Origin: a virus
Lineage: Duplodnaviria; Caudoviricetes
Direction: 5' to 3' (one strand)
IMG/VR virus record: IMGVR_UViG_3300049988_000118
Coordinates: 9,989-73,988 of that record
DNA: 64,000 bases
This document shows positions 12,521 through 32,200 of this stretch, piece by piece. Position 1 is the stretch's first letter, and every line of letters starts with the position of its first letter. The notes beneath the pieces were generated by a model that saw nothing but the letters and a program-made list of their open reading frames with translations, had not been told where the DNA came from and made no database searches. The position numbers and the translations under genes are program-made.

Positions 12521-12775
12521 ATGGCCGGCACTGTGAAGACGCCGGCCGAGATCCGGGCGGACAAGCTCGCCGAGATCGAGCGCATCAACCGGAACCTCAC
12601 TCGGGGCATCAAGAAGGTCCGGGAAGAGGATCGCGAGATCGAGCACGTAGATCCGAAATACCTCATCCGCCGGCGCGACGAGCTTCTCGCCGAGACGGGC
12701 GGCGCCAACGAGACCGGGCCCGAACTAACGGCCCGCGTGCGGCAGGTCCGCATGATCGGGCGAAAGGGATACTGA
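12521..12775 (+). CDS. Head-tail joining protein (lambda gpW-like)
   Basis: Small ORF between terL and portal; TGATG coupling. Confidence 0.65.
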   Translation: MAGTVKTPAEIRADKLAEIERINRNLTRGIKKVREEDREIEHVDPKYLIRRRDELLAETGGANETGPELTARVRQVRMIGRKGY

Positions 12776-13943
12776 TGGGCCTTCTCAGCCGGATGTTCGG
12801 CGGCGCCAAGCGAGGTGCCGCGCGCGCCTTCTTCGCCCCAGGCTTCGGCTACGAGGGGGCACGCTTTTCGCGCCGGCTTCGCAGCTGGCTGCCGGAGCGC
12901 GCCAGCATCAACGCGCTGCAGGCGCAGGGCGGCGAGCTTCTCCGCGCCCGCGCCCGCCAGCTGGTGCGCGACAACGCCCTGGCCGCGTCCGCGATCGACA
13001 CGTGGGTCGGCTCCGTCGTGGGCGACGGCATCACGCCGTCTCCGACGATCGACGACAAGGCCCTGAAGACGGCCATCAAGGAGGCGTGGCTACGCTGGAC
13101 CGACGAGGCCGATGCCGACGGCCTGACGGATTTCTACGGCCTGCAGGCCCTCGTCGCCCGGTCGATGTTCACCGGTGGCGAGTGCTTCGTCCGGTTTCGG
13201 CCTCGCCGGATCGAGGACGGGTTCAGCGTTCCGCTGCAGCTTCAGATCTACGAGGCCGAGCAGCTGCCGCTGTCCTTCAACGTGCAGCGCTCGGACATCG
13301 GCAACGAGATTCGACACGGCATCGAGTTCGACCGGATCGGCCGGCGCCTCGCCTACCACTTCCTGAAGGTCCGGCCCGGCGACGGCGCCTATGCCTACGG
13401 CCTGGAGAATGGCGATCGCGTGCGCGTGGCGGCTTCCGAGGTCATGCACATCTACCGCCCCCTGGAGGCTGGACAGATCCGAGGGCAGACGCAGCTCGCC
13501 GCCGCGATGGTGCGGATGCACCTGCTCGACAGCTACGATGACGCCGAGCTCGACCGGAAGCGCGTCGCTGCGATGTTCGCAGGCTTCATCAAGAAGAACG
13601 CCATCGGCGACCCGCTCCCGGTCCCGGCCGGGTCCGACGCCTTCGGCGGTTTCGGTGGCGTGGGGGATCAGCCGCCTCCGATGGAGATCGAGCAGACCGT
13701 CGCCGACATGGAACCGGGCACGATGAACGTGCTCAACCCCGGCGAGGAGATCACGTTCTCGAACCCGGCCGACGTCGGCGGCTCCTACGAAGCCTTCATG
13801 TATCGGAACCTGCTCGCCATCGCGGCGGGGTGTGGCGTTCCCTACGCGGCCATGACCGGCGACCCGAGCAAGGGCAACTTCTCGTCCCAGCGCAGCATCG
13901 AGCTCGAATACAAGCGCCGGGTCTCGCAGTTCCAACATCAGAC
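12775..13943 (+). CDS. Portal protein, lambda family, 5' segment (interrupted by satellite)
   Basis: LRARARQLVRDN, GECFVRFR, GIEFDRIGRRLAYH, GQIRG, YAAMTGD.S..NFSS motifs. Junction at ...QFQHQT; continues at 31834. Confidence 0.95.
13934..13943 (+). repeat. attL core AACATCAGAC
   Basis: Exact 10-bp direct repeat with 31824-31833 at both portal breakpoints. Confidence 0.92.
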
Positions 13944-13979
13944 TATGTGCTTTGGGCTAAGCCCTTCGTAAATAACGAG

Positions 13980-14003
13980 AAAGCCGCTTTCGGGCGGCTT
14001 TTT
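13980..14003 (+). terminator. Intrinsic (likely bidirectional) terminator just inside attL
   Basis: AAAGCCGC-TTTCGG-GCGGCTTT-TT. Confidence 0.8.
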
Positions 14004-14128
14004 CTGTGGGCGCGCGGGTGGCCTGAGAAGTCTGCCTAAGTCGTTGAAGTCCCATGAGGACCGGCGGCGCCACGCGACATGCGCGCGACATTCGATGCGA
14101 CAACGAACGCGACAAAATCGGAGGGCCT

Positions 14129-14341
14129 ATGTCCATGCACCCTGAGCAGGATTTGCTCTACGGCGTCCCTGCCATTGCGACTTTCCTCGGCATCCGGCCA
14201 CGTCAGGCCAAGCACCGAGTTGCAACGGGCGAGATCCCCTCGTTCCGCATTGGGGAATCCATCTGCGCTCGCCGCTCAACTCTGACGGCGTGGCTTGCCG
14301 AGCGCGAGGCCGAGGCCCAGCGGAGCCGGTCCAATGCCTGA
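14129..14341 (+). CDS. Excisionase-like HTH protein
   Basis: LLYGVPAIATFLG..GEIPSFRIG.SICARRSTL..W (HTH_17/Xis pattern); GGAGG RBS; adjacent to att. Confidence 0.7.
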   Translation: MSMHPEQDLLYGVPAIATFLGIRPRQAKHRVATGEIPSFRIGESICARRSTLTAWLAEREAEAQRSRSNA

Positions 14342-14946: not shown

Positions 14947-14949
14947 CCC

Positions 14950-15456: not shown

Positions 15457-15569
15457 TGGCTCGCGCACGTCAGCGGGCAGGAGAATGGCCCGCCGGAGCT
15501 GGCGATAGGTTTTAGCCCCGGCAGGTAGCGGGTGCGGGGGAAAGCACTCTTGCGGTGATTCCGAGACAG

Positions 15570-16070: not shown

Positions 16071-16469
16071 ATGCCGAAGTCGAGACGCCGCCCGCAAGCG
16101 GCCGATTCCGCGCGCCTGCCCGTCGTCCCCGAGGACTTCGAGGCGGTGACTGAGGCGGATCGCCGGTTCTTCCTACGGTATCCGCAGCGGTCCTATCGGG
16201 TTCGGCATACAAGCCGGGCAGAGATAGACCAGGGCGCACGCGCCGGCAGTGCGTTCGAGGCGCCTTACGCCAAGTTCCGCTGGTTCACCGCGATCCGACA
16301 GGTGGCGCCGGGGTGTCGGCTGCGTGTGTATCTCCAGGCGCCCGCGCTGTGCGAGACGGACATACCGGAAGCACTGGCGGCCGATATCTACCATCGGTTC
16401 GAGGGGCAAAGCGCTCGCGACACGACAATTCTTATGATGGATGCCCTGAGAAAGGCGGGCGCCCTATGA
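16071..16469 (+). CDS. Satellite hypothetical protein preceding primase
   Basis: GGAG RBS; ATGA coupling to primase. Confidence 0.55.
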   Translation: MPKSRRRPQAADSARLPVVPEDFEAVTEADRRFFLRYPQRSYRVRHTSRAEIDQGARAGSAFEAPYAKFRWFTAIRQVAPGCRLRVYLQAPALCETDIPEALAADIYHRFEGQSARDTTILMMDALRKAGAL

Positions 16470-18763
16470 CGACCGCCGCCGCGGGTGAGCGCCCGCCGAA
16501 ACCCGCCTATCAGCCCTTCACCGGCCTGCCGGACTTGCCGGCGCTGTGCGAGATGCGCGCCCGGCCTCAGTGGCTTGCCTGGGACTACGTGTGGCGCCCG
16601 GAAAAGGCGAAGTGGGACAAGCCCCCAATGAACGCCCGGACGGGCGGGGCCGGCTCGTCAACCGACGCCTCGACGTGGTCCACCTATGACCAGGCCGCGG
16701 CGCGTGCCTCTCGTGAGGGGCTGCCAGGCGTCGGCTACGTCCTGTCGCCGGAGGTCGAGGACAGCGGTGTCGACCTCGACAAGTGCCGCGATCCCGAGAC
16801 GGGTATACTTCAGGCATGGGCGCAGGTGGCCGTCGATTTCGCCGAGACCTACACCGAGGTGTCGCCGTCCGGTCGCGGGCTGCGCTTCTTCGTCAAGGGG
16901 TTAGTCGACGGTCGCAAGATCGATGCGGCCCAAGTGGAGATCTACACCAAGGGCCGATACCTGACCGTCACCGGGCAGCATATCCCTGGCACGCCCACGG
17001 AGATTCGGGAGGCGCCCCGGCTCATCGCCTACCTTCAGGAGCGCGCCGACCAGTTCCGAGAGGTCGAGCGTGCCGCCGCTGATCGCGCCCGAGAGAACGA
17101 GCGCAAGAAGGCCGAGAAGCATGCCGCCCGCGAGCCCCGCCCTGAGCCGGGCCCGACAGTCAGCGAGCGGGCCTCGGCGAGCGCTCGGCAGCGTGGTCCG
17201 CGCGAGGGCGGCGACTTCTGGCGAACCGTCAACGACCGCGCCCTTGCGAACCTTGGCGCATGGGTCCCGAGCGTGTTCCCCGGCGCCCGTTGGCAGGCTG
17301 GCACAGGCGCCTACCGCGTTGAGCAAAGCGCGCTTGGCGAGGGCTACGAGGAAGACCTGTCCCTGCACCCGGACGGCATTCGGGACTTTGGCAGCGGTGA
17401 CATGGGAGACTCGCGCGACGGCGCGCGGACGCCGATCGACGTGGTGGAAGCCTACCTGCCGGCGAGCGACGCCGCGGCGGCGGCCATGTGGCTGTGCGAT
17501 CGGCTCGGCATCCGGCCCGAGGACATCGGGTGGCGTGGCGGGCGTAACGAGGGTGCGGAGCGCCCGCGGTACGAGGGGCCCCAATCCGATCCGGGCCCCA
17601 CCGCCGAGTCGCCGCCGGCATTCCGGGCGCGTCCGTTCGTGTGGAAGGACCCGCACACCCTGCCGATGCGCGAATGGCTTCTCGGCCGGCACCTGATCCG
17701 AAAATACACGAGCGCCACCGTCTCGCCGGGTGGCCTGGGCAAGTCGTCCATCATCATCGTGGACGCGCTGGCCCTCGTGACGGGTCGCAACCTCATCGGA
17801 CACCAGCCGCATGGACGTCACCGGGCGATGATCTGGAACGGCGAAGACCCGATGGACGAATTGCAGAAGCGCATCACGGCGGCCTGCCTCTATTTCGAGA
17901 TCGACCGGACCGAGATCGAGGGGCGCTTGTTCGTCAACTCCGGACGCGACGACCCGATCACGGTGGCGAGAATGCACAGGGGTGACGTGGTGATTGCCGT
18001 GCCGGTGGTGGACGCTCTTAAGGCGACCATCTTGGCGAACGAGATCGACGTCGTGTTCGTGGACCCGTTCGTGTCCTGCCATGAGGTGACGGAGAACGAC
18101 AACAACGCCATTGATCGTGTGGCGAAGCTGTGGGGCCGGATCGCAGGCGAAACGAATTGCAGCATCGAGCTCGTCCACCATTCGCGGAAAACCGGCGGCG
18201 CCGAGATCACCGTCGAGGACGCGCGCGGCGCCGTGGCTTTGCTCGCCGCGGTTCGCTCGGCCCGGACCCTCAACGGCATGCAAAGGGACGAGGCTGAGAA
18301 GTGGGGTATTACGGATCGCGGGCTGTATTTCCGAGTGGACAACGGCAAGGCAAATCTCGCCCCGCCGCCGTCTGAAGGCTCGGCGTGGTTCAAGAAGCAA
18401 TCCGTTTCCCTCGGCAACGGCGGCAGCGTTGGGAGCATCGTGCTCGACGGTGACAGCGTTGGCGTGGTGGCAGCGTGGGAGCCGCCGAACCCAATGGATG
18501 GCGTGTCAGTCGATGATCTGAGAAAAGCTCAGGCAGCGACAAGGGAAGGCCGCTGGCGCGAGAACTCACAGGCTCGCGACTGGATCGGCAAGCCGATCGC
18601 CTACGCCCTCAGGCTCGACGCAGACAACAAGGCCGACCGCGCCCGCATCAAAGGGATGCTCGCCGTCTGGATGAAGACTGGCATGTTCGTGGCCGTCACC
18701 GGCAAGGACGACAAGGCGATGGACCGGACCTTCATTGAGGTTGGCGAGAGCGCAGTCGACTGA
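16466..18763 (+). CDS. Satellite primase-polymerase fused to AAA_25/RepA-like SF4 helicase
   Basis: Prim-pol N-terminus homologous to 2228-4630; Walker A SPGGLGKSS, VFVDPF, LVHHSRK, DARGA. Confidence 0.85.
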   Translation: MTTAAAGERPPKPAYQPFTGLPDLPALCEMRARPQWLAWDYVWRPEKAKWDKPPMNARTGGAGSSTDASTWSTYDQAAARASREGLPGVGYVLSPEVEDSGVDLDKCRDPETGILQAWAQVAVDFAETYTEVSPSGRGLRFFVKGLVDGRKIDAAQVEIYTKGRYLTVTGQHIPGTPTEIREAPRLIAYLQERADQFREVERAAADRARENERKKAEKHAAREPRPEPGPTVSERASASARQRGPREGGDFWRTVNDRALANLGAWVPSVFPGARWQAGTGAYRVEQSALGEGYEEDLSLHPDGIRDFGSGDMGDSRDGARTPIDVVEAYLPASDAAAAAMWLCDRLGIRPEDIGWRGGRNEGAERPRYEGPQSDPGPTAESPPAFRARPFVWKDPHTLPMREWLLGRHLIRKYTSATVSPGGLGKSSIIIVDALALVTGRNLIGHQPHGRHRAMIWNGEDPMDELQKRITAACLYFEIDRTEIEGRLFVNSGRDDPITVARMHRGDVVIAVPVVDALKATILANEIDVVFVDPFVSCHEVTENDNNAIDRVAKLWGRIAGETNCSIELVHHSRKTGGAEITVEDARGAVALLAAVRSARTLNGMQRDEAEKWGITDRGLYFRVDNGKANLAPPPSEGSAWFKKQSVSLGNGGSVGSIVLDGDSVGVVAAWEPPNPMDGVSVDDLRKAQAATREGRWRENSQARDWIGKPIAYALRLDADNKADRARIKGMLAVWMKTGMFVAVTGKDDKAMDRTFIEVGESAVD

Positions 18764-19465: not shown

Positions 19466-19586
19466 GCACGTTCCTCGGTGGGTAGGCCCTCCGACCCCGC
19501 CCCGCATGCTGCGCCTCACTACCGCAGCGCACAATGGGTCCTCCGGAGACACCCCACCCCTCTGCGGGCAGAGTTGCTCCCGACTT
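19466..19586 (+). repeat. Satellite copy of helper cos region (121 bp identical)
   Basis: Identical to 9856-9976; upstream of satellite terS. Confidence 0.9.
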
Positions 19587-19668
19587 TCGGCTCTCTGCAA
19601 GTTTGCCAAAAATAGGGGGGGCCGCTTCTTTTCGGTCCCTCGAAGCCTCGCTCCCGATGGAGAAACCG

Positions 19669-20187
19669 ATGAACGAGACCGCTTCGAACGCCGAGATGAT
19701 GGAGCTGTTCGGGGTCTCAGACCGGACCGTCGCGAAGCACGCCGCCAGCGGGATATTCGTGCGTGTTGGCCGCGGCCAGTACGACGTGAAGGCCTCGATC
19801 CGCACCTACGCTGAGCACCTCCGCAGCGCCGCATCCGGGCGGCCCAGCACCAACGAAGAGCTGCGAGCCGAGAAGATTCGACTGACCGCCGCCCAAGCTG
19901 ACCGCGCAGAGATGGACCGGGACGCCGAGGCCGAGGTGATGGTCAACGTGAAGGAATTCGACGACGCGTGGGGCCATGAAATCGTCAAGCTTCGGCAGGG
20001 GTTTCTCGGCTTGGCAAATAAGATCGCGGAGGCTCACCCCCACTTCACGCGCCACGAGATCCACACCATCGACGAAGTGATCCGCGCGATGATGGAGCGG
20101 GTTGCCGACGATGCCGATACACGCCTGGAAATCGCTCAGGCCAAAGAAGACAAGGGCGGAAAGTCGCGGCGCCGGTCCCGCCGCTGA
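19669..20187 (+). CDS. Satellite small terminase / Rpp-like (Nu1 family)
   Basis: MMELFGVSDRTV..AASG HTH; EELRAEKIRLTAAQADRAEM coiled coil typical of Nu1; GGAG RBS. Confidence 0.8.
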   Translation: MNETASNAEMMELFGVSDRTVAKHAASGIFVRVGRGQYDVKASIRTYAEHLRSAASGRPSTNEELRAEKIRLTAAQADRAEMDRDAEAEVMVNVKEFDDAWGHEIVKLRQGFLGLANKIAEAHPHFTRHEIHTIDEVIRAMMERVADDADTRLEIAQAKEDKGGKSRRRSRR

Positions 20188-20207
20188 ACGCGTAATTCGA
20201 TTTAATG

Positions 20208-20247
20208 GTTGGTTTTGGTTGGTTTTCCCCGGTCCAAAGTTGGTTTT
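20208..20247 (+). promoter_or_regulatory. Three helically phased direct repeats GTTGGTTTT
   Basis: Copies at 20208, 20218 and 20239 in the only AT-rich gap before the satellite morphogenesis operon. Confidence 0.5.
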
Positions 20248-20288
20248 CTCTCGTTGAATTAGGCCCTCGTCCGCCGGACACTTCCGGC

Positions 20289-20636
20289 ATGACAACCGCC
20301 AGCTTCCCCCGCTTCAGCACAACGCTGGACCACGAGACGGCCCGCGCCGTCACCCTCGCCGCCGCCGAACGGATGCAGAGTCGCGCCGACTTCATTCGTG
20401 ACGCGGTGGCCCACGAACTGAGCGTCCGACAGGCCGCCGCCGACGCCGTGCGATCCGAGGTCGAGCGCCAGGGAGCCGCCGCCCGCCGCCTCACCGCCGC
20501 ACTGGATCGGGGGCCGGGTGCAACCTCCCGTCTCACCGCCTCGCGCGTCGCCGCGCTCGCCCGGCCGGCCGCGCACACCATCCCCAACATCTCCACCCTC
20601 GACGCGGCCGAAGCCGCCGGAAAGGCATGCCCATGA
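20289..20636 (+). CDS. Ribbon-helix-helix-like regulator
   Basis: RFSTTLD beta-strand followed by two helices (..SRADFIRDAV). Confidence 0.5.
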   Translation: MTTASFPRFSTTLDHETARAVTLAAAERMQSRADFIRDAVAHELSVRQAAADAVRSEVERQGAAARRLTAALDRGPGATSRLTASRVAALARPAAHTIPNISTLDAAEAAGKACP

Positions 20637-21718
20637 AATCGCCGACGAAGCTGCTCAAGGCCACCGCCACGGCGTTCGGCCTTGCCCGTAAGGCCACCGA
20701 CGCCGAGGTCATCGAGGCTGCAATCGCGGAGGCACGCACGGCCATTGCGGAGGGCGAGCGCGACGGGGCCGAGGCCCAAGCGCGCTACGACGAATCCCTG
20801 CTCGCCGATGACGGCGACCCGGCCTTGATGCTCAACGCGATCCAGGCCGCCAAGATCAAGCGGGACCGCGGCGAGGCCCAGGTGGCCACCCTCACCGTGC
20901 GCCTGAACGATGTGCGGGAGGCCAGCGAGCAAGAACGCCGCGGCGCGATCTATCGGGATGCGGAGGCAAAAGCCGAAGCCGCCCGCGTTGCCCTGGTTCA
21001 GGAATACCCCGCCATCGCCCGACAGATGCATGGGCTACTCCGGCTTCTGGCCGAAGCCGAGATCAGGGTAGCGCAGGCGAACGCGGACCTACCGCACGGG
21101 GCCGCGCCCATCGCTTCGCCCGAGTGGCAGGTTCGGTATCCCGGGGCCAACCTGCCGCCGCTGCCGGCCCCAACGATGGTGAAGCTTTGGGCGCCCATGG
21201 GTGGAAGCGAGCCCGTGCCGGAGGAAGACCAGCAACGGGTTCGCCCGATGCCCGGTCGAGCGGAGTGGGTCGGCGCCCTCCGGCGTGATGACGGCTCCAC
21301 GCTGGAGTGTCATCGCCGTACCTTTCGGAAGTCGCTGGAATACGAGAAGCCCCACGGGGATTGGGGCACCAATCTGGCCGGGTCCGTGTGCCTGCCGGCC
21401 CTGTATCCCTTCACCCCGCCCGTGTGGCCGCAGAACCTCATCAACGGCAAGACATTCGACCGATCTGCTGATGTTGCGCTGTCGACCTTGGATGATGTTG
21501 AGCCCCTGAGCGCGGCAGTCTGGCGACGAGCGGAGGCGATTTTGAAGGTCGTCACCCGCTTCCGGGAGGAGGGCCGCCCCCTCAACGTAGTGGACGACGG
21601 AGCACCGCGCGTACCGCGCCACCAGCCTGTCACGGATCTCGCCCTTCGCCACCAGCCTGTCACGGATCTCGCCCTTTACGACGAGGATGACGGCGAAGCG
21701 GAGGGCGAGGCAGCATGA
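20633..21718 (+). CDS. Satellite protein with long helical/coiled-coil N-terminus, unknown function
   Basis: Ala/Glu/Arg-rich N-terminal half; ATGA coupling both sides. Confidence 0.65.
   Translation: MKSPTKLLKATATAFGLARKATDAEVIEAAIAEARTAIAEGERDGAEAQARYDESLLADDGDPALMLNAIQAAKIKRDRGEAQVATLTVRLNDVREASEQERRGAIYRDAEAKAEAARVALVQEYPAIARQMHGLLRLLAEAEIRVAQANADLPHGAAPIASPEWQVRYPGANLPPLPAPTMVKLWAPMGGSEPVPEEDQQRVRPMPGRAEWVGALRRDDGSTLECHRRTFRKSLEYEKPHGDWGTNLAGSVCLPALYPFTPPVWPQNLINGKTFDRSADVALSTLDDVEPLSAAVWRRAEAILKVVTRFREEGRPLNVVDDGAPRVPRHQPVTDLALRHQPVTDLALYDEDDGEAEGEAA
21617..21676 (+). repeat. 30-bp perfect tandem duplication (RHQPVTDLAL x2)
   Basis: CGCCACCAGCCTGTCACGGATCTCGCCCTT twice. Confidence 0.95.
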
Positions 21719-21978
21719 TGCGCGTCGTGCCGAAAGTCGATGGCGCCGAAGACGAACGGCGGGCGGCCAAGCGCCAACGGCTCACCGAAACCCTGGCCCT
21801 GCCGGAAGCGCAGGGCAGGGGCAACCTCCTCCCCTTCGCCCTGGCGTGCCGTTTCGATCTTCCCATGGCCCGCGTGAAGCAAGCCCTGGTCGACGCACCC
21901 GAGATGACCGACCCGAACGAAGTTGCCGAGTGGGCGGAGGCATACCCCGTCCGCTCAAAACTGGAGATCGTGAAATGA
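21715..21978 (+). CDS. Small protein resembling the lambda Nu3/gpC scaffold motif
   Basis: LALPEAQGR...L..AP pattern; coupled to the protease gene. Confidence 0.45.
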   Translation: MMRVVPKVDGAEDERRAAKRQRLTETLALPEAQGRGNLLPFALACRFDLPMARVKQALVDAPEMTDPNEVAEWAEAYPVRSKLEIVK

Positions 21979-23231
21979 ACGACTACGATGGCCGCCGCCT
22001 GATCTGCGAAGGTGCCTTGGTCCTCTATGGTGACGTGGGCGAGGCCGGATGGGCGGACGTCGATGGCTTCACCGCCTCCGATGTGCTGTTCGCGCTCGCG
22101 GAGATCGGCGCAGACCGTGACGTGACGGTGCGGATCAACTCTGGCGGCGGCAATGCCTTCGAGGGCCTCGCCATCCACGCGATCCTCTCGGCGCACCGCG
22201 GCAAGATCACCACCGTAGTCGAGGGCATCGCCGCGTCCGCCGCCTCCATCATCGCGATGGCGGGGAAGGACCGGATCGTCGCGCCCGGGTCGCTCATGAT
22301 GATCCACGACCCGTCGGGCCTGACGGTCGGCACGGCGGACGATCACGACGACACCGCCGCCATGCTGCGCACCCTGTCGGATGCGCTTGCGACCGTCTAC
22401 GCGACCGCCACCGGCCGAGCGAAGGCCGTCATCCTGGAGGAGATGAAGGCCGAGACGTGGCTCGACGCCGACGAATCCCTTGCCCGGCGGTACGCCACGG
22501 CGATCGGAACCGCCCCCGCCTCGACCGCCATGCTCCCGTTTCCGTTCGGAGCCTATGCGAAGGCACCCGCCCACCTCGTCGCCCTTGCGGAAACGAAGGG
22601 GTGGAGCGCCCGCCAGTTCACCGCCTCGCACGCCCTGGGCAAGTCGCGTTCCGAGCGCCACGCCGCTGCACCGCGCTCCTTCGATAAGGCGGCCACCGCG
22701 TCGGCGCCTGACGCCATCGCCCAGACGTGCGCTCTTGCCGGGTGCCCGGAGAGGGCCGCCGAGTTCATTGCGGCTGGGGCGTCGTCGGCCGACGTAGCGA
22801 AGCAGCTGCTAGCGGAAGCGGTGACCGGCACGGCCACCCAGGGCGCGAGCCAGAACCGTCTGTCTCGCGCCGATTCGGCGTCGGTCGCGACCCTGTGTCT
22901 CGACGCGAGCATTCCCGAGATGACGCCGACCATCCTCGCCCGAGCCACCACCGTGGATCAGGCCAAGGCGCTGATCCAGACCGGCACCGAAATGAAGGAC
23001 GTCGTGACCCTGGCGCGCCGGCACTGCCCGAGCGTGCCCGAGGATTTGGCGGTCACAGCGTTCGCCGCCGGAAAGACGGTCAAGCAGGTCCGCGACGAGG
23101 CCGTGAACCTGATGGCGGAAGAGGGCGACCGAACCGAAGTCCAGGGGAGCCGCCACCCCGCCGCGATCAATTCCGGCCCCGGGGCGGCGAAGCGGAACAT
23201 GCTGGCCCAACTCGCGCGGGCCACCCGCTGA
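21975..23231 (+). CDS. Satellite ClpP-like head maturation protease with scaffold extension
   Basis: INSGGG, GIAASAAS, MMIHDP, ETWLDA; paralog of 32215-33423. Confidence 0.9.
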   Translation: MNDYDGRRLICEGALVLYGDVGEAGWADVDGFTASDVLFALAEIGADRDVTVRINSGGGNAFEGLAIHAILSAHRGKITTVVEGIAASAASIIAMAGKDRIVAPGSLMMIHDPSGLTVGTADDHDDTAAMLRTLSDALATVYATATGRAKAVILEEMKAETWLDADESLARRYATAIGTAPASTAMLPFPFGAYAKAPAHLVALAETKGWSARQFTASHALGKSRSERHAAAPRSFDKAATASAPDAIAQTCALAGCPERAAEFIAAGASSADVAKQLLAEAVTGTATQGASQNRLSRADSASVATLCLDASIPEMTPTILARATTVDQAKALIQTGTEMKDVVTLARRHCPSVPEDLAVTAFAAGKTVKQVRDEAVNLMAEEGDRTEVQGSRHPAAINSGPGAAKRNMLAQLARATR

Positions 23232-23425: not shown

Positions 23426-23955
23426 ATGCCCAAAAGCTCCACTCGGAAGCGCGCCCCTGCCGCGCGGTCCCCCGCCCCGGACCTCCCGCCGCCGCGCTTC
23501 GTCATGCCGGTGCCGGATCATACCGTTCCGCTGATCCACCCGGTCGAGTACGCCGGCCGAACCTTCGCCAGCATCACCCGTCGACGCCCGTCTAGCGCCG
23601 TGCTGGGCCGGTGGTTCGAGCAGTTCACCGAGGGCGCGGCGGTCCCGGGCGACACGAATCTCAACGTGCCGATTTTCGTCGACGAGGCCGGCGACCTCGT
23701 ACCGGATGCGGTGCTCGGCTTTCTCGACGACGATGACCGGCAGGTCGTGTTCGAGGATGCTGACCGTTTTTTTCCCAAGCGGCTCGCGGTTGCCCTGGAA
23801 GCTCTGACGCAGGACTCAGCCCCTTCGTCTGGCGAACCTGCCGAGCCGACATCATCCGCTTGATAGGGGGCTCGCGGGCTGAGCTCGACGCCATGACCTG
23901 GGGCGAGTTCACCCGCGAGTGGTTCGAAGCCAAACGCGTTTCTGAGGGCCGCTGA
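23426..23955 (+). CDS. Satellite tail assembly chaperone (gpE-like, 23426-23863) with -1 frameshift extension to 23955
   Basis: Homologous to 48451-48834; T7 slippery run at 23767-23773; -1 frame open to TGA 23953-23955. Confidence 0.85.
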
Positions 23956-23956
23956 G

Positions 23957-26647
23957 ATGTCGACACGCACCGCAACCCTGATCGCCAACTTGGTCGATCA
24001 GGTCTCAGGTCCGGCCAAGGGCATGGCCGGCGCCCTGAAAAGCACCGCATCCGCCCTCGATGCACTGAAGGCCAAGGCCGGCAAGATCGACGCCTTCAAG
24101 CAGGCGAGCAAGTCGCTGGACGACGCCGCGCAGAAGTTCAGGCTGGCGCAGCAGAACGTGCGCAAGATCAAGGCCGAGATGGAGGCCGGCGGCGACGGCG
24201 CCAAAAAGCTCGGGAGCGCGCTGAAGGGCGCCGAGCGCAACGCCGATGCGGCGCGGGCCGCGTTCAAGAATCAGGGGCAGGAGGTCCGCGCGTTGCGCAC
24301 CGCCCTGGAGCAGGCCGGCGTGCCGCTCAACGCGCTCGCCGCGCACGAGCGCCAGTTGCAGACCCAGATCAACCACACCACCGAGGCGCTCAAGCGACGG
24401 AAGAAGGCGCTTGCGGATGTTGGCGCCGGGGCGCCGGCGAGCCGGATGGGGCCAGCCGCAGGCGGGCACGGGCCTCAAGCAGGGCGCGGGGGCGGTGGCA
24501 CGGGCGCCGCCGGGAGCGCCGTAGTGGGCGCCGGCGTGGCGCGCTTCGGCGTGGCAGCGGCCGGAATCGGTGGGGGTGCCTACATCATCGGCGATCAGAT
24601 CCGCCGGGCTGCGAAGTCGTCGATAGATTTCGAGCGCAGCATGATCGAGGTCGGCAAGGCCACCGACGCATCAGGGGCCGATCTCGAAAAATACTCCGAG
24701 GGCATCCTGGCGCTGGCCCGCGCCACCGGCAAGACGAAGGAAGACCTCGCCTCGATGCTCTCCTCGGCGGGCTTTGCCGGCCGCCCGAAGGAGGAGCTAA
24801 TGAACTTCACCGAGTACGCGGCGAAAGCGACCGTGGCTTGGGGCACGAGCGCCGAAGACACCGGCCAGGCGTTGGCCGAGATCGGCAACATCTACGACGC
24901 GAATCAGAAGCGCATCGAGGAGATCGGCGACGCGATCAACACGATGGCGGACAGCTCGGCATCGAAGGAATCCGACCTACTCGACTTCATGCGTCGGGCG
25001 GGTGCCTCGTCGAAGCAGGCCGGCATCTCAGCCGAGCATATGCTGGCGTTCGGCGCCTCGATGAAGGAAGTGGGCGTCCGGACCGACGTGGCCGCCACCG
25101 GCTTCGAGGCACTCCTGAACGTGATGAAGCTCGGCGAGGAGTTTTCGAAGAAAGCAGGCGAAGGTCTGAAGGATCTCGGCGTCAACTCCACCAAGATGCG
25201 CAAGGCGTTCGTCGCCAAGCCGGTCGAGACGATGCTTGGCCTGCTGGAAAAGATCAACAAGGTCGCGGACCCGCTCAAGAAAGCGGAGATTATGACCAAC
25301 CTTTTTGGCAAGGAATATCAGGACGACATCGCCAAGATGCTCAACGCCTTGCCGAAGGTGAACAAGTACATCGGCATCATGAGCGATCAGGCGAAGATTG
25401 CCGCCGGTGGCGTCCGGTTCCAGTTCGGTCAGAACCTCGACAAGGACGTGTCGAAGATCGACCGGGCCACGCAATCCATCGACGTTCTCTACAAGCGCAT
25501 CGGCGACCCGATCAAGATCCAGATCGGCGGCATCTCCGAGCAGGTCAATACGCTCGTCGACAGCCTGGAAAAGGGCGACACGATCCTTCAGCGCCTGGTG
25601 AAGCGCCTCAACGGCGGCGAAGCTGGCAAGCCGATCGAGCTGCCCGAAATGAATGGCGAAGGCGGCCTGGAAAAATGGTTCGAGGAAAAGCTGCCCTGGC
25701 TGAGCGGCAAGAAGTGGAACGACGAGGTCGACAAGCGGATCGGCAAGACCGGCGCTGACACGGACCGGATGAACCGCGAGGACGCCGACGGGCGGCGCGC
25801 CGCGGCCGAGCGGGAGGTGCTCGACCGCCCGGCCGACATCGAGACGAAGATCCAGCGCCAGCGCCGCGCACAGGATCAGGCCCGGCGGGAAGCGGTCGGG
25901 GCTACGGGGATGCGGCGCTCGCTGGCGGTGGAGCAGATCGGCAAGTCCGACGCCGAGGTGAAGCGCTTGGAGGGCGAGCTTGCCAAGGCTTGGGAGGCGA
26001 TCGGAGCCCTTCGCGCTCAGCACAAGCGGGACAAGGGGGCGTTCAGCGTCGACGGTCCGGCTGCGAAGGACGTGGAGACCATCGGCCCGGGCCGCTTCGG
26101 GCTTGGCCTACACGGCACGGACGTGCTGCCCTCGCGCCGGGTGCCGCTACCGCCGCCGCGACCCGCAGGGCTGACGCCCGGCGCAGAAATCACCATGCCG
26201 GAGATCAAGGTCGAGGTGGACACCTCCGGCTTCGATGAGGCCAGCCGCAAGGCCGATGAACTCGGTGCGCGGACCATCGCGCCGAAGGGCGACGGCGCCG
26301 GCTTGGCCCCCATCGGGACAGCGGCCGACGAGGCCAAGGCGAAGCTCTCTGAAATCAATGCCACCACCGTCACACCGAAGGGAGATGCCGCAGGGCTCGC
26401 GCCGCTCGGGACGGCCGCCGACGAAGCCAAGGCAAAGCTTTCGGCCCTCGCCGGGGTGAGCGTCGCGCCGACCGTCGACGCCTCATCCATCGCGGCGGCA
26501 GAAACCGCAGTAGATCGCCTCCTGGCGAAAATCGCCCGGGTCGGCCCAGCCCTGAAAGGCGCCAACGGGGCTGTTGCCTCGGGTGTCGTCCGTTCCGGCA
26601 ACGTCGCCCAGCGCCTCCAGAACACTTTCACCGACAAGGGGATGTGA
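23957..26647 (+). CDS. Satellite tail tape measure protein (896 aa)
   Basis: TP901-type core (SIDFERSMIEVGK...); N- and C-termini match helper TMP; follows chaperone. Confidence 0.92.
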   Translation: MSTRTATLIANLVDQVSGPAKGMAGALKSTASALDALKAKAGKIDAFKQASKSLDDAAQKFRLAQQNVRKIKAEMEAGGDGAKKLGSALKGAERNADAARAAFKNQGQEVRALRTALEQAGVPLNALAAHERQLQTQINHTTEALKRRKKALADVGAGAPASRMGPAAGGHGPQAGRGGGGTGAAGSAVVGAGVARFGVAAAGIGGGAYIIGDQIRRAAKSSIDFERSMIEVGKATDASGADLEKYSEGILALARATGKTKEDLASMLSSAGFAGRPKEELMNFTEYAAKATVAWGTSAEDTGQALAEIGNIYDANQKRIEEIGDAINTMADSSASKESDLLDFMRRAGASSKQAGISAEHMLAFGASMKEVGVRTDVAATGFEALLNVMKLGEEFSKKAGEGLKDLGVNSTKMRKAFVAKPVETMLGLLEKINKVADPLKKAEIMTNLFGKEYQDDIAKMLNALPKVNKYIGIMSDQAKIAAGGVRFQFGQNLDKDVSKIDRATQSIDVLYKRIGDPIKIQIGGISEQVNTLVDSLEKGDTILQRLVKRLNGGEAGKPIELPEMNGEGGLEKWFEEKLPWLSGKKWNDEVDKRIGKTGADTDRMNREDADGRRAAAEREVLDRPADIETKIQRQRRAQDQARREAVGATGMRRSLAVEQIGKSDAEVKRLEGELAKAWEAIGALRAQHKRDKGAFSVDGPAAKDVETIGPGRFGLGLHGTDVLPSRRVPLPPPRPAGLTPGAEITMPEIKVEVDTSGFDEASRKADELGARTIAPKGDGAGLAPIGTAADEAKAKLSEINATTVTPKGDAAGLAPLGTAADEAKAKLSALAGVSVAPTVDASSIAAAETAVDRLLAKIARVGPALKGANGAVASGVVRSGNVAQRLQNTFTDKGM

Positions 26648-27246: not shown

Positions 27247-27249
27247 GGA

Positions 27250-29605: not shown

Positions 29606-29760
29606 CCCCCGGCCCGGCCGCCCGCACGGACGCCTCAGATCTGAGGGCGCGGTGCCGTACCGCGCCAATCCGGAGCCCGGCCGGGCCTCACGAACGCCGC
29701 TCGCGCAATCCCGCGCGGGCGGCATTCGCCGTACCGCACGGCGCAATTCGTGAGGATGCC

Positions 29761-30549
29761 ATGACCACGACACCCACGGTCCACATCACCGACGGCAAAC
29801 CCATGGCGGACAGCCGTGAGATCGCCGCCACTTTCGGCCGGCAGCACAAAGACGTGCTCCGAGCCTATCGAGAGCTCGCATGCTCCGCGGATTTCAGGCA
29901 GCGCAATTTTGCGCCGTTTCATTCCAAGGACTTAAGCGGGTCCACCCTCTCCCACGTCCTGATGACCAAGAACGGGTTCGCCTTCCTCGTCCTCGGCTTC
30001 ACCGGCGCGCCGGCCGCCGTCTTCAAGGAGGCGTACATCGAGCGGTTCGACGCGATGGAGGAGGCGCTACGGGGCAAGGCGATCCTGGCCGTTCCGACCA
30101 CCTTCGCCGAGGCCCTACAGCTTGCCGCCGACAACCAACGGCAGGTTGAAGCGCAGGCCGCACAGATCGCCGTCCTGGCCCCACGCAGCGAGGCCCTGGC
30201 GACCATCGCCGACGGGGAGGGGACGTTCTGCATCCGCGACGCGGCCAAGATGCTTCAGGTCACGGAAAGCGGCCTGACGGCCTACCTGTCGGGCAACGAC
30301 TGGATCTATCGACGCGAGCCCGGCGGGCCATGGGTGGCGACCGCCCGGCGGTTCGGACAGGGCTGGATCACCACGAAGGTGATTCCGGTCGAGGTCGGCA
30401 ACGGCAAGGTCTGGAACAAGCCGCAGGCCCGCATCACGAGCGCCGGCTTGACGGTCCTGGCGATGCGCTTGGGCAAGCCCGTGCCGGCGGGCCTCGCAGC
30501 ATCGGCCCCGCTCATCGAACACGCGGCTCGGCCGCAGGGAGGACACTGA
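29761..30549 (+). CDS. Rha-family regulator fused to ANT/KilAC antirepressor domain
   Basis: DSREIAATFGRQHKDVLRA, MTKNGFAFLVLGFTG..A..FKEAYIERF; then VPTTFAEALQLAAD and IRDAAKML...RITSAGL. Confidence 0.88.
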   Translation: MTTTPTVHITDGKPMADSREIAATFGRQHKDVLRAYRELACSADFRQRNFAPFHSKDLSGSTLSHVLMTKNGFAFLVLGFTGAPAAVFKEAYIERFDAMEEALRGKAILAVPTTFAEALQLAADNQRQVEAQAAQIAVLAPRSEALATIADGEGTFCIRDAAKMLQVTESGLTAYLSGNDWIYRREPGGPWVATARRFGQGWITTKVIPVEVGNGKVWNKPQARITSAGLTVLAMRLGKPVPAGLAASAPLIEHAARPQGGH

Positions 30550-30550
30550 G

Positions 30551-31753
30551 ATGGCGAGCGTCAGGAAGCTCAAGAAGGATGACCCCGCGTCTCCATGGAT
30601 CGTTGAATACACGGACCCGTCGACGGGCAAGCGGGTGCGCAAGACCCCTAAGTCGGGACTGAAAAAGGACGCCGATGCCCTGCGTCGGAAGATCGAGGCG
30701 GAGATCGATGGAGGCATTCACACCGCCCCTTCGACCTCGCCCACGATCGCTGACCTGGGCGACACCTTCGTTCGGAACGCGGCGGAGCGCCTATCGGACG
30801 GCCGGATCGGGCGAAGCCGTTATGCCATCATCGTCTACACGGTGGAGAATTGCCTAAAACCGCACCTTGGTCGCATGAAGCTTTGTGGCCTGAAGCGCGA
30901 GGACGTGGAGGGCTGGTATAACTGGCTGCGCAAGGAAAAGAAGCTTGCCCCGGTCACGTCGAAAGGGCGGGTCATCATTTTCCAGATGATCGAGGACTTT
31001 GCGGTCCGCCGGTCATGGACGAAGCTGACGCCGGTGCGCGACTACCTCAAGGATCTCACCGGCATCCGGCAATCACGTGTGCGGACCTTCAGCGCGGAGC
31101 AGGCCGCGCAGGTGCTCGCGACTGCCGCCCATCGAGCCCCCGGCTTCAAGCTGCGGGCGCACGCCTACACCGAATGCATGGTTAACCTCGCGGCTTGCTG
31201 TGGCCTCCGGTACGGGGAGATCCTGGGATTGTCCCTCGATGACGTGTTCTTCGATGACCGGCGCCTCTACATCCGGCACAGCCTCACGGACTGGGACGAG
31301 TTAAAGGGGCCGAAGACAGTCGCCGGCGTCCGCAACATTCCTTTGCCGCAGCACGTCGCTGACATGCTCACGGCCTGGATCGCCAACGGCTACGTGGCGA
31401 ACGAGCGCCGGTTGCTGTTCCGGACATCATCGGGCGGCATCATCAGTGCCGCGAGCTTCCACAAGGCGACGTGGGGGCCGTTGCTGATCCGTGCAGGGCT
31501 CGGCGAAGGGAAGCGTTTCCACTTCCACGCCCTGCGCCATTTCGCGTCGAGCTGGATGATCGCGAACGGCCTGCCCGTGACCGACGTGGCGCGCCTCATG
31601 GGGCACAGCCATTTCGACACGACGCTCCAGGTCTACGCGCACCCGGTCATCGCGAACCACCGGCACCAGGAGGCTTTCGACCGGATGGCGAGCAATCTGA
31701 AGCTGGAATTGCCTGCGCCAGGGGAGACCTCGCGCGACATGGCGCCGGCCTGA
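30551..31753 (+). CDS. int: Tyrosine integrase (satellite)
   Basis: Intact catalytic set: GLRYGE (R), KTVAG (K), FHALRH (HxxR), MGH, QVY (Y); ends 70 nt before attR. Confidence 0.95.
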   Translation: MASVRKLKKDDPASPWIVEYTDPSTGKRVRKTPKSGLKKDADALRRKIEAEIDGGIHTAPSTSPTIADLGDTFVRNAAERLSDGRIGRSRYAIIVYTVENCLKPHLGRMKLCGLKREDVEGWYNWLRKEKKLAPVTSKGRVIIFQMIEDFAVRRSWTKLTPVRDYLKDLTGIRQSRVRTFSAEQAAQVLATAAHRAPGFKLRAHAYTECMVNLAACCGLRYGEILGLSLDDVFFDDRRLYIRHSLTDWDELKGPKTVAGVRNIPLPQHVADMLTAWIANGYVANERRLLFRTSSGGIISAASFHKATWGPLLIRAGLGEGKRFHFHALRHFASSWMIANGLPVTDVARLMGHSHFDTTLQVYAHPVIANHRHQEAFDRMASNLKLELPAPGETSRDMAPA

Positions 31754-31823
31754 ACGCGACATAAATGCGGATGCGGCTGGACGCATCCAGCGTTTTCAAT
31801 GACTTAGCACATGGGTAAGAGTT

Positions 31824-31833
31824 AACATCAGAC
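31824..31833 (+). repeat. attR core AACATCAGAC
   Basis: Matches 13934-13943; portal frame resumes right after. Confidence 0.92.
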
Positions 31834-32200
31834 GCTCGTGTTCCAACTGTGCCGGCCGGTCTGGGCGCGCTGGATCGCGACCGCCGCGCTTGCCGGCTCC
31901 ATCCCGGGGCTGACGCCGGCGACCTTCGCCCGCAATCGCGCGGCGCTTTCGACGGTGAAGTGGCAGCCCCCGAAGTGGGACTGGGTCGATCCGCTAAAAG
32001 ACCTCAAGGCCGACGAGCTCGCGATCAAGATGGGCATCCTGCCCAGGTCGGACGCGATCGAGGCCCGCGGCGGCGACGCCGAAGAGGTCGATGCGCGGCG
32101 CAAGGAAGACCAGGACCGCGCCAACAGCCTCGAGCTTCGGCTCGACGGCGGCACGGTCGACGATCCGAACCCGGTCACCGACGCCGCTGACGCGGCCTGA
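31834..32200 (+). CDS. Portal protein 3' segment
   Basis: LVFQLCRPVW..WQPPKWDWVDPLKD..G.LPRSDAIEARGGDAEEV; in frame with the 5' segment after excision. Confidence 0.95.

What the first reader, a model, noticed from the sequence alone, without database searches (positions are those of the whole stretch)
12775..32200. A satellite sits inside its helper prophage's portal gene; excision rebuilds the portal (reversible genetic switch)
Seen: the portal ORF breaks at AACATCAGAC (13934-13943) and resumes after the same 10-mer (31824-31833). Joining 12775-13943 to 31834-32200 gives 1536 nt = 511 aa + stop, reading ...SQFQHQT|LVFQLCRPVW... with no frameshift. The integrase is intact and I saw no decay in the late genes. 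Known: the portal is essential for head assembly, and integrative elements can act as reversible gene switches (skin in sigK, SPbeta in spsM). Inference: the helper cannot make virions until the satellite leaves, so helper morphogenesis depends on prior satellite excision. I know of no described satellite that uses its helper's essential structural gene as attB.
Basis: partly seen in the sequence, partly recalled or inferred. Interest (0 to 1): 0.96.

Follow-up and report, generated by a model that had tools for sequence, protein, structure and literature searches.

The report
Satellite embedded in helper phage's portal gene
A 17.9-kb phage satellite sits precisely inside the portal gene of a Methylobacterium-type phage and would rebuild that gene on excision; this lifestyle was published in 2023 for E. 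coli relatives ("helper-embedded PICIs"), but here an unrelated integrase family in Alphaproteobacteria does it, apparently undescribed.

Summary
Observation confirmed. AACATCAGAC occurs only at 13934-13943 and 31824-31833. Joining the flanks gives a 511-aa portal that differs at 6 residues from an uninterrupted portal in another sample.

The insert (13944-31823) looks like a satellite. It has an integrase, an Xis-like HTH, a primase-helicase, TerS, and homologues of the helper's protease/scaffold, tail chaperone and tape measure. A 137-bp block is 96% identical to the helper's TerS start region. No TerL, portal, capsid or tail-body gene was detected.

The novelty claim is wrong. Tommasini, Mageeney and Williams 2023 (PMC10111431) described helper-embedded PICIs: an integrase clade targeting 14 prophage late-gene sites, with satellite excision shown after induction. 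This scan had already met such elements on other DNA (e1-146870, e1-473607).

What differs:
- The integrase is only 20% identical to the founding HE-PICI integrase.
- It lies at the downstream end of the island.
- HE-PICIs were reported only from Enterobacteriaceae.

Relatives of this integrase sit directly upstream of truncated TerS, TerL, portal, protease or capsid genes in about 30 other contigs. Three more joins restore the broken gene.

Excision and helper dependence were not shown here: only contigs were available, and none carried attB or attP. Verdict: a new variant of a known kind.

The parts
9856..9992 (+). Helper copy of a 137-bp block shared with the island, straddling the TerS start; candidate packaging-recognition (cos-like) region
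   Evidence: blastn gives 96% identity to island 19466-19602. It is by far the closest match among five short blastn matches between island and helper; next is 51 bp at 88% at the TMP 3' end.
9896..10633 (+). Helper small terminase; the true start is probably 9924
   Evidence: Position upstream of TerL. Island TerS residues 1-27 align at 81% to 9924-10001. Only a weak HTH_17 Pfam match.
10617..12518 (+). Helper large terminase (lambda gpA type)
   Evidence: Pfam GpA_ATPase 2.6e-73 and GpA_nuclease 3.4e-74
12521..12775 (+). 84-aa gene in the gpW position
   Evidence: No Pfam hit. 98.8% identical to the L001 gene in the same place. L062 has Pfam gpW at this position.
12775..13943 (+). Portal gene, N-terminal part (residues 1-390); the open frame runs on to 13971 through 8 island codons
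   Evidence: Phage_portal_2 1.2e-109; 384 of 390 residues identical to P0001
13934..13943 (+). attL core (AACATCAGAC)
13980..14001 (.). 8-pair GC-rich hairpin with T-runs just inside the left island end (terminator-like)
   Evidence: sequence
14054..14341 (+). First island gene: HTH_17 (AlpA/excisionase-type) candidate
   Evidence: Pfam HTH_17 E = 1.4e-4, 22.4 bits, below the 27-bit cut-off, covering profile positions 1-50 of 51. The region is 81% identical in DNA to the left end of the L001 island.
14073..14091 (+). Two CGCGACAT repeats on the left arm of attP (candidate arm-type integrase sites)
   Evidence: All 5 copies in the window lie in the island's end regions: four within about 150 nt of a junction and one about 460 nt inside the left end. 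GCGACAT lies within 40 nt of the integrase stop in at least 10 related loci.
16313..18763 (+). Island primase-helicase
   Evidence: AAA_25 4.7e-32. PHROG primase and primase/helicase families, 2e-45 to 3.5e-36. 46% identical to helper gene 2228-4630.
19466..19602 (+). Island copy of the 137-bp TerS-start block
19534..20187 (+). Island small terminase
   Evidence: phrog_57 terminase small subunit 2.4e-25
20205..20636 (+). Ribbon-helix-helix protein
   Evidence: RHH_1 2.1e-4, above the cut-off. 73% identical homologue in the L001 island.
20627..21718 (+). u363: unknown protein made of a long helical hairpin plus a small beta domain
   Evidence: No Pfam or PHROG hit. 240 homologues found. AlphaFold mean pLDDT 79.6. 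No PDB match at E <= 0.001. Homologues lie in similar primase-bearing elements.
21687..23231 (+). ClpP-type prohead protease / scaffold homologue (514 aa)
   Evidence: CLP_protease 3.5e-27; phrog_94 6e-53; 43% identical over 483 aa to helper gpC
23426..23863 (+). Homologue of the helper gene that precedes its tape measure (tail-chaperone position)
   Evidence: 35% identity to 48472-48831. No family hit.
23957..26647 (+). Island tape measure protein (896 aa)
   Evidence: PhageMin_Tail 2.6e-31; phrog_28 7.5e-67. N- and C-termini match the helper TMP 48936-51842, which is 968 aa.
29761..30549 (+). Rha / KilAC (ANT) antirepressor-type protein
   Evidence: Phage_pRha 8e-23 and ANT 3.4e-20
30551..31753 (+). 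Tyrosine integrase at the downstream end of the island
   Evidence: PF00589 3e-26; phrog_1 2.9e-55
31733..31762 (+). Two CGCGACAT repeats on the right arm of attP
31768..31791 (.). Hairpin with T-run after the integrase gene
31824..31833 (+). attR core
31834..32200 (+). Portal gene, C-terminal part (residues 391-511)
   Evidence: 121 of 121 residues identical to P0001. 71% identical to the fragment behind the L004 integrase.
32215..34859 (+). Helper gpC-type ClpP protease, gpD decoration protein and gpE major capsid protein
   Evidence: CLP_protease 4e-30, HDPD 4.3e-34, Phage_cap_E 2.2e-97
36298..57160 (+). Helper contractile-tail and lysis genes: baseplate, fibre, sheath, TMP 48936-51842, endolysin 56267-57160
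   Evidence: PHROG hits

Best explanation
The 17.9-kb insert is a helper-embedded phage satellite. It is an alphaproteobacterial counterpart of the HE-PICIs of Enterobacteriaceae.

Integration. Its tyrosine integrase recombined a 10-bp core in the element's attP with the same 10-mer at codons 387-390 of the lambda-family portal gene. The target is a roughly 56-kb phage with a lambda-type head and a contractile tail, probably from a Methylobacterium-like host on leaves. attP carries no replacement sequence, so the portal loses its conserved last 121 residues.

What the satellite carries and lacks. It keeps replication (primase-helicase), a small terminase next to a near-identical copy of the helper's TerS-start region, and diverged copies of the helper's protease/scaffold, tail chaperone and tape measure. 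It lacks a large terminase, portal, capsid, tail sheath, tube, baseplate and lysis genes, so it would have to borrow these.

Inferred cycle, by analogy with the published E. coli experiments. After induction the composite replicates. Integrase plus the HTH_17 protein encoded by the first island gene then excise the satellite. This restores the portal reading frame and the continuity of the late operon. Helper-made particles then package both genomes. The satellite is about one third of the helper's size.

Shown here: the precise reconstructable insertion, the gene content, and the clade-wide tropism for head genes. Inferred: excision, its timing, helper dependence and packaging.
For: (1) Precise insertion. 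The joined ORF is 98.8% identical to an uninterrupted portal.

(2) Same codon in other phages. The 78%-identical integrase in L004 and the 38%-identical ones in L030/L031 are each followed within 150 nt by a portal fragment starting at residue 387-388.

(3) Clade tropism.
- Of 8 integrase homologues picked from the general protein database, 6 sit directly upstream of a truncated or nearby TerS, TerL or portal gene. One more is in a phage context and one is chromosomal.
- Among 47 IMG/VR loci, the frame just downstream is a head-module gene in about 30, and clearly truncated in about 24. Targets include gpA-type and TerL_ATPase/nuclease terminases, Phage_portal_2 and Phage_portal portals, CLP/S49/S78 proteases, and Phage_capsid, Major_capside and gpE capsids.
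- No tRNA gene lies next to any of these integrases.

(4) Both halves are present in three more loci, and joining them restores the gene: ClpP in L015 and L011, TerL in L039. Those islands are 9.5-10.4 kb.

(5) Near-identical helpers carry related islands elsewhere: in TerL at residue 527 (L005) and in gpE after codon 12 (L001). The L001 island's left end is 81% identical to this island's left end.

(6) Satellite content and homology to the helper, including the 137-bp block at 96% identity at the TerS start.

(7) attP architecture. All five CGCGACAT copies in the window lie in the island's end regions: four within about 150 nt of a junction and one about 460 nt inside the left end. The motif recurs next to the integrase stop across the clade.

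(8) No clade integrase is found in 50,697 GenBank phage genomes.

(9) Published precedent with excision measured by qPCR and deep sequencing (PMC10111431).
Against: There is no direct evidence of excision. Only assembled contigs were available, and none joins 13943 to 31834 or 31823 to 13944.

The Xis candidate is below Pfam's cut-off.

The outer phage shows no integrase or host flank in the 74-kb record, so "prophage" is unproven.

The truncated portal retains the whole Pfam domain, so loss of function is inferred only from conservation of the C-terminus.

Several island ORFs have no known function, so a hidden capsid or other structural gene cannot be fully excluded.

IMG/VR loci are biased towards phage contexts.

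One clade member sits at a chromosomal site.
Confidence: 0.78

Rival explanations
1. Dead-end insertion. An integrative element hit the portal gene once and killed the phage. The composite is a decaying remnant with no regulated excision.
For: No attB or attP contig in the source run. No outer integrase in the record. Tommasini et al. note that many helpers of such satellites look truncated.
Against: Both portal halves, the integrase, both att cores and all helper late genes are intact. The C-terminal portal piece is identical in protein to an uninterrupted homologue. The same and neighbouring head-gene sites are used repeatedly by related integrases in different phages. Depth is even across island and flanks.
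Confidence: 0.1
2. The insert is mobile but not a satellite. It could be a defective small prophage or a cargo island that uses phage head genes merely as conserved landing sites, with no dependence on the surrounding phage for transfer.
For: Many island ORFs are unknown. Other clade islands carry cargo such as DprA, RloB with an AAA ATPase, and transposases. One clade member is at a chromosomal site.
Against: The island has TerS beside a 96%-identical copy of the helper's TerS-start region. It also has diverged homologues of the helper's protease/scaffold, tail chaperone and tape measure, whose ends match the helper's. It lacks TerL, portal, capsid and tail-body genes. Sister islands carry a capsid and/or chaperone-plus-TMP pairs. 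Its size is about one third of the helper's.
Confidence: 0.1
3. Assembly artefact: a metagenomic chimera joining two unrelated elements inside a shared 10-mer.
For: The record comes from a metagenome-derived virus collection.
Against: Independent Logan contigs of the source run cross both junctions with 0 mismatches at depth about 33. The two breakpoints fit one reading frame. The integrase sits at the junction. The same arrangement recurs in many unrelated assemblies.
Confidence: 0.01

Closest known systems
Helper-embedded PICIs (HE-PICIs), founding element Eco567.11capE in E. coli NRG857c (Tommasini, Mageeney and Williams 2023, NAR Genom Bioinform 5:lqad036, PMC10111431)
   Same: [quoted passage not shown] The identity block is short (about 10 bp) with no replacement sequence, so the gene is broken and would be rebuilt by excision. 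The integrase clade has switched repeatedly among head and late-gene sites, including Phage_portal_2, CLP_protease and Phage_cap_E. Both have a primase, a Bro/ANT-type protein and captured helper late genes. Both share a short near-identical segment with the helper at the packaging region.
   Different: The integrase is only 20% identical (25.8 bits) to the 11capE integrase and lies on a very long branch from it. It sits at the downstream end next to an antirepressor gene, not at the upstream end next to alpA. The arm motif is CGCGACAT, not the doubled TGTATTGC. The portal site, at the end of the Pfam profile (about position 354), is not among the published portal sites 21, 38, 227 and 241. 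Hosts are Alphaproteobacteria, whereas the paper found phage surroundings only in Enterobacterales. The helper has a contractile tail. The island carries TerS and a chaperone-plus-tape-measure pair.
Classical PICIs / SaPIs and P4
   Same: An integrase, a primase-type replication gene, dependence on helper structural genes, packaging redirection through its own TerS (as in some SaPIs), and a genome about one third of the helper's.
   Different: Those integrate at chromosomal sites and interact with the helper only in trans. No AlpA at Pfam threshold, and no Sid, Psu, Delta or Cpm homologues, were detected here.
Regulated gene integrity elements (skin in sigK, SPbeta in spsM, phi10403S in comK)
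   Same: An integrative element interrupts a coding gene, and precise excision restores it.
   Different: Those interrupt host genes and serve host development or physiology. Here the interrupted gene belongs to another mobile element, and the benefit would go to the satellite.

Membership tests
HE-PICI (Tommasini et al. 2023) | [quoted passage not shown] | tested here: met
   The portal is split at residue 390, and the main island genes are on the same strand as the late operon.
HE-PICI (Tommasini et al. 2023) | Short att identity block without a replacement sequence; joining the flanks restores the late gene | tested here: met
   10-bp core; the joined ORF is 98.8% identical to the uninterrupted P0001.
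HE-PICI (Tommasini et al. 2023) | Integrase belongs to the 11capE clade (the paper's cut-off was 400 bits to the 11capE integrase) | tested here: not met
   25.8 bits and 20% identity to L057:1204-2439. Branch of 5.5-8.7 changes per column in the tree.
HE-PICI (Tommasini et al. 2023) | Zone order: integrase plus AlpA at the upstream end, then Bro, replication and late zones | tested here: not met
   The order here is HTH_17, primase, TerS and late genes, Rha/ANT, integrase. The integrase is the last gene. Compare 11capE.
HE-PICI (Tommasini et al. 2023) | Doubled TGTATTGC motif at fixed distances on both sides of the attP centre | tested here: not met
   No exact copy in the window and none near the island ends even with 1 mismatch. 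A different motif, CGCGACAT, occupies both arms.
HE-PICI (Tommasini et al. 2023) | Satellite excision from the composite after induction | not testable with these tools
   Only contigs were available, and no attB or attP joint was seen.
Phage satellite (general sense) | Lacks a full set of virion genes but has its own integration and replication genes and a means to be packaged by a helper | tested here: met
   Integrase, primase-helicase and TerS are present, plus the 137-bp helper-identical block. No TerL, portal, capsid, sheath, tube, baseplate or lysis gene was found by Pfam or PHROGs.
Phage satellite (general sense) | Mobilised by, and interfering with, a specific helper phage | not testable with these tools
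   Inferred only from gene content and position.
Capsid-forming PICI (cf-PICI) | Own capsid, portal, protease, head-tail connectors and terminase | tested here: not met
   Only a protease/scaffold homologue and TerS were found in this island. Sister islands L011 and L015 do carry a Phage_capsid gene.
P4-like satellites | Sid, Psu, Delta and a P4-type alpha primase | tested here: not met
   No such Pfam or PHROG hits. For u363, P4 Psu appears only as an insignificant fold match, E = 1.7.

The most novel reading that the evidence does not exclude
A second integrase clade, phylogenetically distant from that of HE-PICIs, has independently acquired a tropism for phage head genes in Alphaproteobacteria (Methylobacterium, Sphingomonas, Azospirillum and others). 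It uses at least ten sites in TerS, TerL, portal, protease and capsid genes, in both lambda-type and HK97-type head modules. Its satellites characteristically carry their own tail chaperone and tape measure.

If so, embedding in the helper's head genes would be a convergent, general satellite strategy and not a quirk of enterobacterial PICIs. The cluster of synonymous changes at the empty attB of a sister helper would then hint at helpers escaping integration by recoding the site.
Probability: 0.55. Interest if true: 0.7.

Novelty: new variant of a known kind. Interest (0 to 1): 0.55.

Why it matters
That part is confirmation, not discovery.

What this window adds is breadth. The published survey found such elements only in Enterobacterales and only with one integrase clade. 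Here the same lifestyle appears with an unrelated integrase, the opposite gene order and a different arm motif. The helper phages are different, the bacterial class is different, and there are dozens of relatives at many head-gene sites. This suggests convergent evolution and a much wider distribution. It also gives a ready-made list of att sites for finding satellites in plant-associated Alphaproteobacteria.

The recurrent chaperone-plus-tape-measure pair is an unexplored kind of satellite cargo. It may let the satellite alter tail length or the DNA-delivery step.

Tried and rejected
- **Read evidence for excision.** No contig joins 13943 to 31834 (attB) or 31823 to 13944 (attP). Contigs drop rare variants, so this says nothing either way. 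Run X13 holds both portal flanks at depth 4-5 and almost nothing of the island, but no contig bridges the site, so it is only a hint of an island-free helper.
- **Single-protein integrase scans.** Scans of genome contigs and viral contigs found no relevant close relative; the only hit was a 26%-identical partial match (L003). An alignment-based scan was needed.
- **tRNA target hypothesis.** Rejected. There is no tRNA in the window or next to any clade integrase.
- **u363 as capsid, portal, Sid or Psu.** No Pfam or PHROG hit. The Atlas gives only unnamed clusters, with a 0.84 lead to a cluster in which 20% of members carry Psu. The AlphaFold model has no PDB match at E <= 0.001. Its function remains unknown.
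- **L011 crossover.** A 19-bp repeat first looked like the crossover, but the reading frame is restored at the 8-bp core TGGACGTT. The 19-mers are repeats inside the arms.
- **Terminator count.** The number of terminator-like sites across the island is no higher than in shuffles. Only the position of the two strongest hairpins, at the island ends, is suggestive.
- **Literature.** Searches for a description of this alphaproteobacterial clade found none in the held library. This is not proof of absence.

Full report
**1.

The 10-mer AACATCAGAC is present at 13934-13943 and 31824-31833 and nowhere else in the window on either strand. Joining 12775-13943 to 31834-32200 gives 1536 nt, a 511-codon ORF reading ...SQFQHQT|LVFQLCRPVW. 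On its own the left piece continues for 8 island codons to a stop at 13971.

Pfam Phage_portal_2 matches residues 32-387 of the left piece at E = 1e-109. The break therefore lies at the very end of the profile.

A search of about 5.8 billion proteins returned P0001, a 511-aa uninterrupted portal. It differs from the joined protein at 6 positions and is identical over the last 121 residues. Its contig, L001, comes from another sequencing run and has TerL, the 84-aa gene, the portal, the ClpP protease and gpD in the same order.

At the DNA level the empty site in L001 reads CAGCACCAGACC where the window has CAACATCAGAC, a match at 8 of 10 positions.

GenBank phage portals align through residues 491-511, so the C-terminal piece is a normal part of this portal family. 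The closest is Acidithiobacillus phage AcaML1, a 59-kb genome, at 49% identity.

**2. Where the window comes from**

The window is bases 9989-73988 of a 73,988-bp IMG/VR virus record that CheckV rates 91% complete. The best-named portal relatives are from Methylobacterium. The only sequencing run that holds the whole stretch is a leaf metagenome, which is probably the source. In that run, contigs cross both junctions without mismatches at depth about 33, and the island has similar depth. An assembly chimera is therefore very unlikely.

**3. The outer phage**

- Early region: deaminase, AAA_24, PD-(D/E)XK nuclease, methylase, helicase, a DUF3987 primase and a NusG-like protein at 7608-8411.
- Lambda-type head module: gpA terminase, portal, ClpP gpC, gpD and gpE.
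- P2/Mu-like contractile tail with its own 968-aa tape measure, followed by an endolysin.

No second integrase and no clear host flank lie in the record. That the outer phage is an integrated prophage is therefore plausible but not shown. Without the island the record measures 56.1 kb.

**4. The island (13944-31823, 17,880 bp)**

In order, nearly all on the + strand, it contains:
- an 8-pair hairpin with T-runs at 13980-14001;
- a 95-aa HTH_17 protein, sub-threshold at E = 1.4e-4 but covering the whole domain;
- small unknown ORFs;
- an 816-aa primase-helicase;
- TerS (phrog_57, 2.4e-25);
- an RHH protein;
- the unknown protein u363;
- a 514-aa ClpP protease/scaffold homologue;
- a 145-aa protein;
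- an 896-aa tape measure;
- further unknown ORFs;
- a Rha/ANT protein;
- the 400-aa tyrosine integrase;
- a second hairpin at 31768-31791.

No TerL, portal, capsid, sheath, tube, baseplate or lysis gene was detected.

Comparison with the helper:

| Island feature | Match in the helper |
|---|---|
| Primase | 46% identical to the helper's primase |
| Protease/scaffold | 43% identical over 483 aa to gpC |
| 145-aa protein | 35% identical to the gene in front of the helper's tape measure |
| Tape measure | Matches the helper's only at its N- and C-termini |
| 137-bp block straddling the TerS start codon | 96% identical in both elements |

This parallels the 258-bp cos-region segment shared by 11capE and its helper. 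The island is about one third of the helper's size, the ratio typical of satellites that redirect capsid size. That comparison rests on general knowledge of P4 and SaPIs, not on a test here.

u363 folds as a long helical hairpin plus a small beta domain (pLDDT 79.6) and has no PDB match. Its homologues lie in similar primase-bearing elements.

**5. The att sites**

Only the 10-mer is shared between attL and attR. All five copies of CGCGACAT in the 64-kb window lie in the island's end regions:
- two at 69-91 nt before the right core;
- two at 130-141 nt after the left core;
- one inverted copy at 14401.

The total count equals the chance expectation, but the clustering does not. GCGACAT also lies within about 40 nt of the integrase stop codon in at least ten related loci, and at the left end of the L001 island. 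These are probably arm-type integrase sites.

**6. Relatives**

The integrase has 271 homologues at E <= 1e-30.

| Locus | Integrase identity | What follows the integrase |
|---|---|---|
| L004 | 78% | Portal fragment from residue 387, in a different phage (S49 protease) |
| L005 | 66% | TerL fragment from residue 527, in a helper whose portal is 99% identical to P0001 |
| L006 | about 47% | Portal from residue 126 |
| L008 | about 46% | Portal from residue 71 |
| L007 | about 46% | TerS/TerL |
| L062 | about 46% | gpA terminase of 478 aa, against about 630 aa when intact |
| L061 | about 45% | Lies among phage genes |
| L060 | about 45% | Chromosomal site in Lichenihabitans |

An alignment-based scan of IMG/VR gave 47 more loci. 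By tblastn and Pfam, the frame right behind the integrase is a head-module gene in about 30 of them and clearly truncated in about 24:
- portal from residues 388 (L030/L031), 403, 200 and 73;
- HK97-type Phage_portal from profile positions 48 and 68;
- gpA terminase from residues 96, 111 and 471;
- TerL_nuclease C-terminal parts;
- CLP_protease from position 116-118, three times;
- Phage_capsid from positions 151 and 174;
- Major_capside from position 36.

No tRNA gene is adjacent to any of these integrases.

In three loci both halves of the target gene are present, and joining them restores it:
- L015: ClpP, 14-bp core, 9.8-kb island;
- L039: TerL, 9-bp core, 10.4-kb island;
- L011: ClpP, 8-bp core, 9.5-kb island.

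Those islands carry Bro-N/ANT proteins, capsid genes, a chaperone-plus-tape-measure pair, or DprA. Large tape-measure-type genes also occur in the islands of L004, L006 and L007.

L001, the contig with the intact portal, itself has gpE broken after codon 12. The break is followed by sequence 81% identical to this island's left end, and further on by RHH and u363 homologues. Near-identical helpers therefore carry related islands in three different genes: TerL, portal and gpE.

No clade integrase occurs in 50,697 GenBank phage genomes. This fits elements that are not part of packaged helper genomes, although few alphaproteobacterial phages are in that set.

**7. What is already known**

They describe helper-embedded PICIs:
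- the founding element 11capE sits in the capsid gene E of a lambdoid prophage of E. coli NRG857c;
- a single integrase clade has subclades that follow the sites;
- identity blocks are short with no replacement sequence, described as "regulated gene integrity" serving the satellite;
- after mitomycin C, the composite excises, then replicates, then the satellite excises, restoring the gene.

All their elements are from Enterobacteriaceae. They state that phage surroundings were found only among Enterobacterales. No other paper in the held library uses the term or describes an alphaproteobacterial equivalent.

**8. How this case differs**

- The integrase is 20% identical (25.8 bits) to the 11capE integrase taken from NC_017634. 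In a quick maximum-likelihood tree that integrase sits on a branch of more than 5 changes per column from the whole clade.
- The integrase is the last gene of the island, preceded by an antirepressor-type gene. In HE-PICIs it is the first gene, followed by alpA.
- The HE-PICI attP motif TGTATTGC is absent. CGCGACAT takes its place.
- The portal site is a new one.
- The helper has a contractile tail.
- The cargo includes TerS and a chaperone-plus-tape-measure pair.

This works like an HE-PICI but fails three defining membership features: integrase clade, zone order and arm motif. I therefore file it as a new variant of a known kind, not as a member of that family.

**9. Proposed mechanism and its status**

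Shown from sequence:
- a precise, in principle reversible insertion;
- an intact recombination module;
- satellite-type gene content;
- a clade-wide tropism for head genes.

Inferred:
- The truncated portal is non-functional. Its missing 121 residues are 71% conserved between distinct helpers.
- The island also separates TerS, TerL and the portal N-part from the rest of the late operon by 17.9 kb with hairpins at both ends.
- Helper late transcription, perhaps antiterminated by the NusG-like protein, may enter the island and first meet the HTH_17 gene, triggering excision.
- The TerS and the shared block direct packaging by the helper's TerL.
- The protease/scaffold and tape-measure copies modify head or tail assembly.

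None of these could be tested with the available data.

**10. A side observation**

Between the joined portal and L001's uninterrupted portal, differences run at about 3 per 60 nt. The 60-nt bin holding the junction has 13, and 16 lie within nt 1131-1191. Nearly all are synonymous. This could be mosaic recombination. It could also reflect helpers recoding the attB to avoid integration: L001's site matches the core at only 8 of 10 positions, and its island sits in gpE instead of the portal. One comparison cannot decide between these.

Noticed in passing
L001:7248-13252 (contig with the uninterrupted portal): The major capsid gene gpE is broken after codon 12. The break is followed by sequence 81% identical to this island's left end (L001:7473-7981 matches window 14154-14662), then a KilA-N/ANT gene, and RHH and u363 homologues. 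This is a related island in a different head gene of a near-identical helper.
   Followed up: partly
L005:820-3690: An integrase 66% identical to this one sits directly upstream of a TerL fragment starting at residue 527, in a helper whose portal is 99% identical to P0001. This is a third insertion site in the same helper lineage.
   Followed up: partly
window 13905-13943 and 31834-31865, compared with L001:5229-5289: A hotspot of mostly synonymous differences lies exactly at the att site: 13 differences in the 60-nt bin with the junction against about 3 per bin elsewhere. It may reflect recoding of attB or local mosaicism.
   Followed up: partly
window 14073-14091, 14401-14408, 31733-31762: All five CGCGACAT copies of the window lie in the island's end regions: four within about 150 nt of a junction and one about 460 nt inside the left end. 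GCGACAT recurs next to the integrase stop codon in at least 10 related loci. These are probably arm-type integrase sites.
   Followed up: yes
window 23426-26647; also L011:6128-8624, L007:1004-4193, L004:1373-4951: Islands of this clade repeatedly carry a tail-chaperone-like gene plus a tape measure gene. In the window, only the two ends of the island's tape measure resemble the helper's (896 aa against 968 aa). This is unusual cargo for a satellite.
   Followed up: partly
window 7608-8411: The helper encodes a NusG-like protein just upstream of its late operon. It may be a processive antiterminator able to read through the hairpin at the island's left end.
   Followed up: no
window 4001-6000: This stretch of the helper's early region has 50% G+C against about 66% elsewhere, which suggests a foreign insert or moron.
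   Followed up: no
window 60157-61962: A UmuC-type Y-family polymerase gene (IMS, IMS_C, DUF4113) lies near the right end of the record. It could be phage cargo or the start of host DNA.
   Followed up: no
window 47010-47942 (- strand): A 310-aa nuclease-like protein with a membrane-protein-like tail is encoded on the opposite strand, between the gene after the tail sheath (46476-47009, PHROG 'head closure') and the tape-measure region of the helper.
   Followed up: no
L060:10001-11209 (Lichenihabitans psoromatis chromosome): A clade integrase (45% identical) lies between chromosomal genes, not in a phage. It may be an off-target or chromosomal-site lineage like those reported for HE-PICIs.
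   Followed up: no
L011:1726-1744 and 11168-11186: A 19-bp direct repeat (CGCAGAAATCCGCCATTTT) lies inside both arms of that island, flanking the true 8-bp core TGGACGTT. This is another arm-site pattern within the clade.
   Followed up: partly
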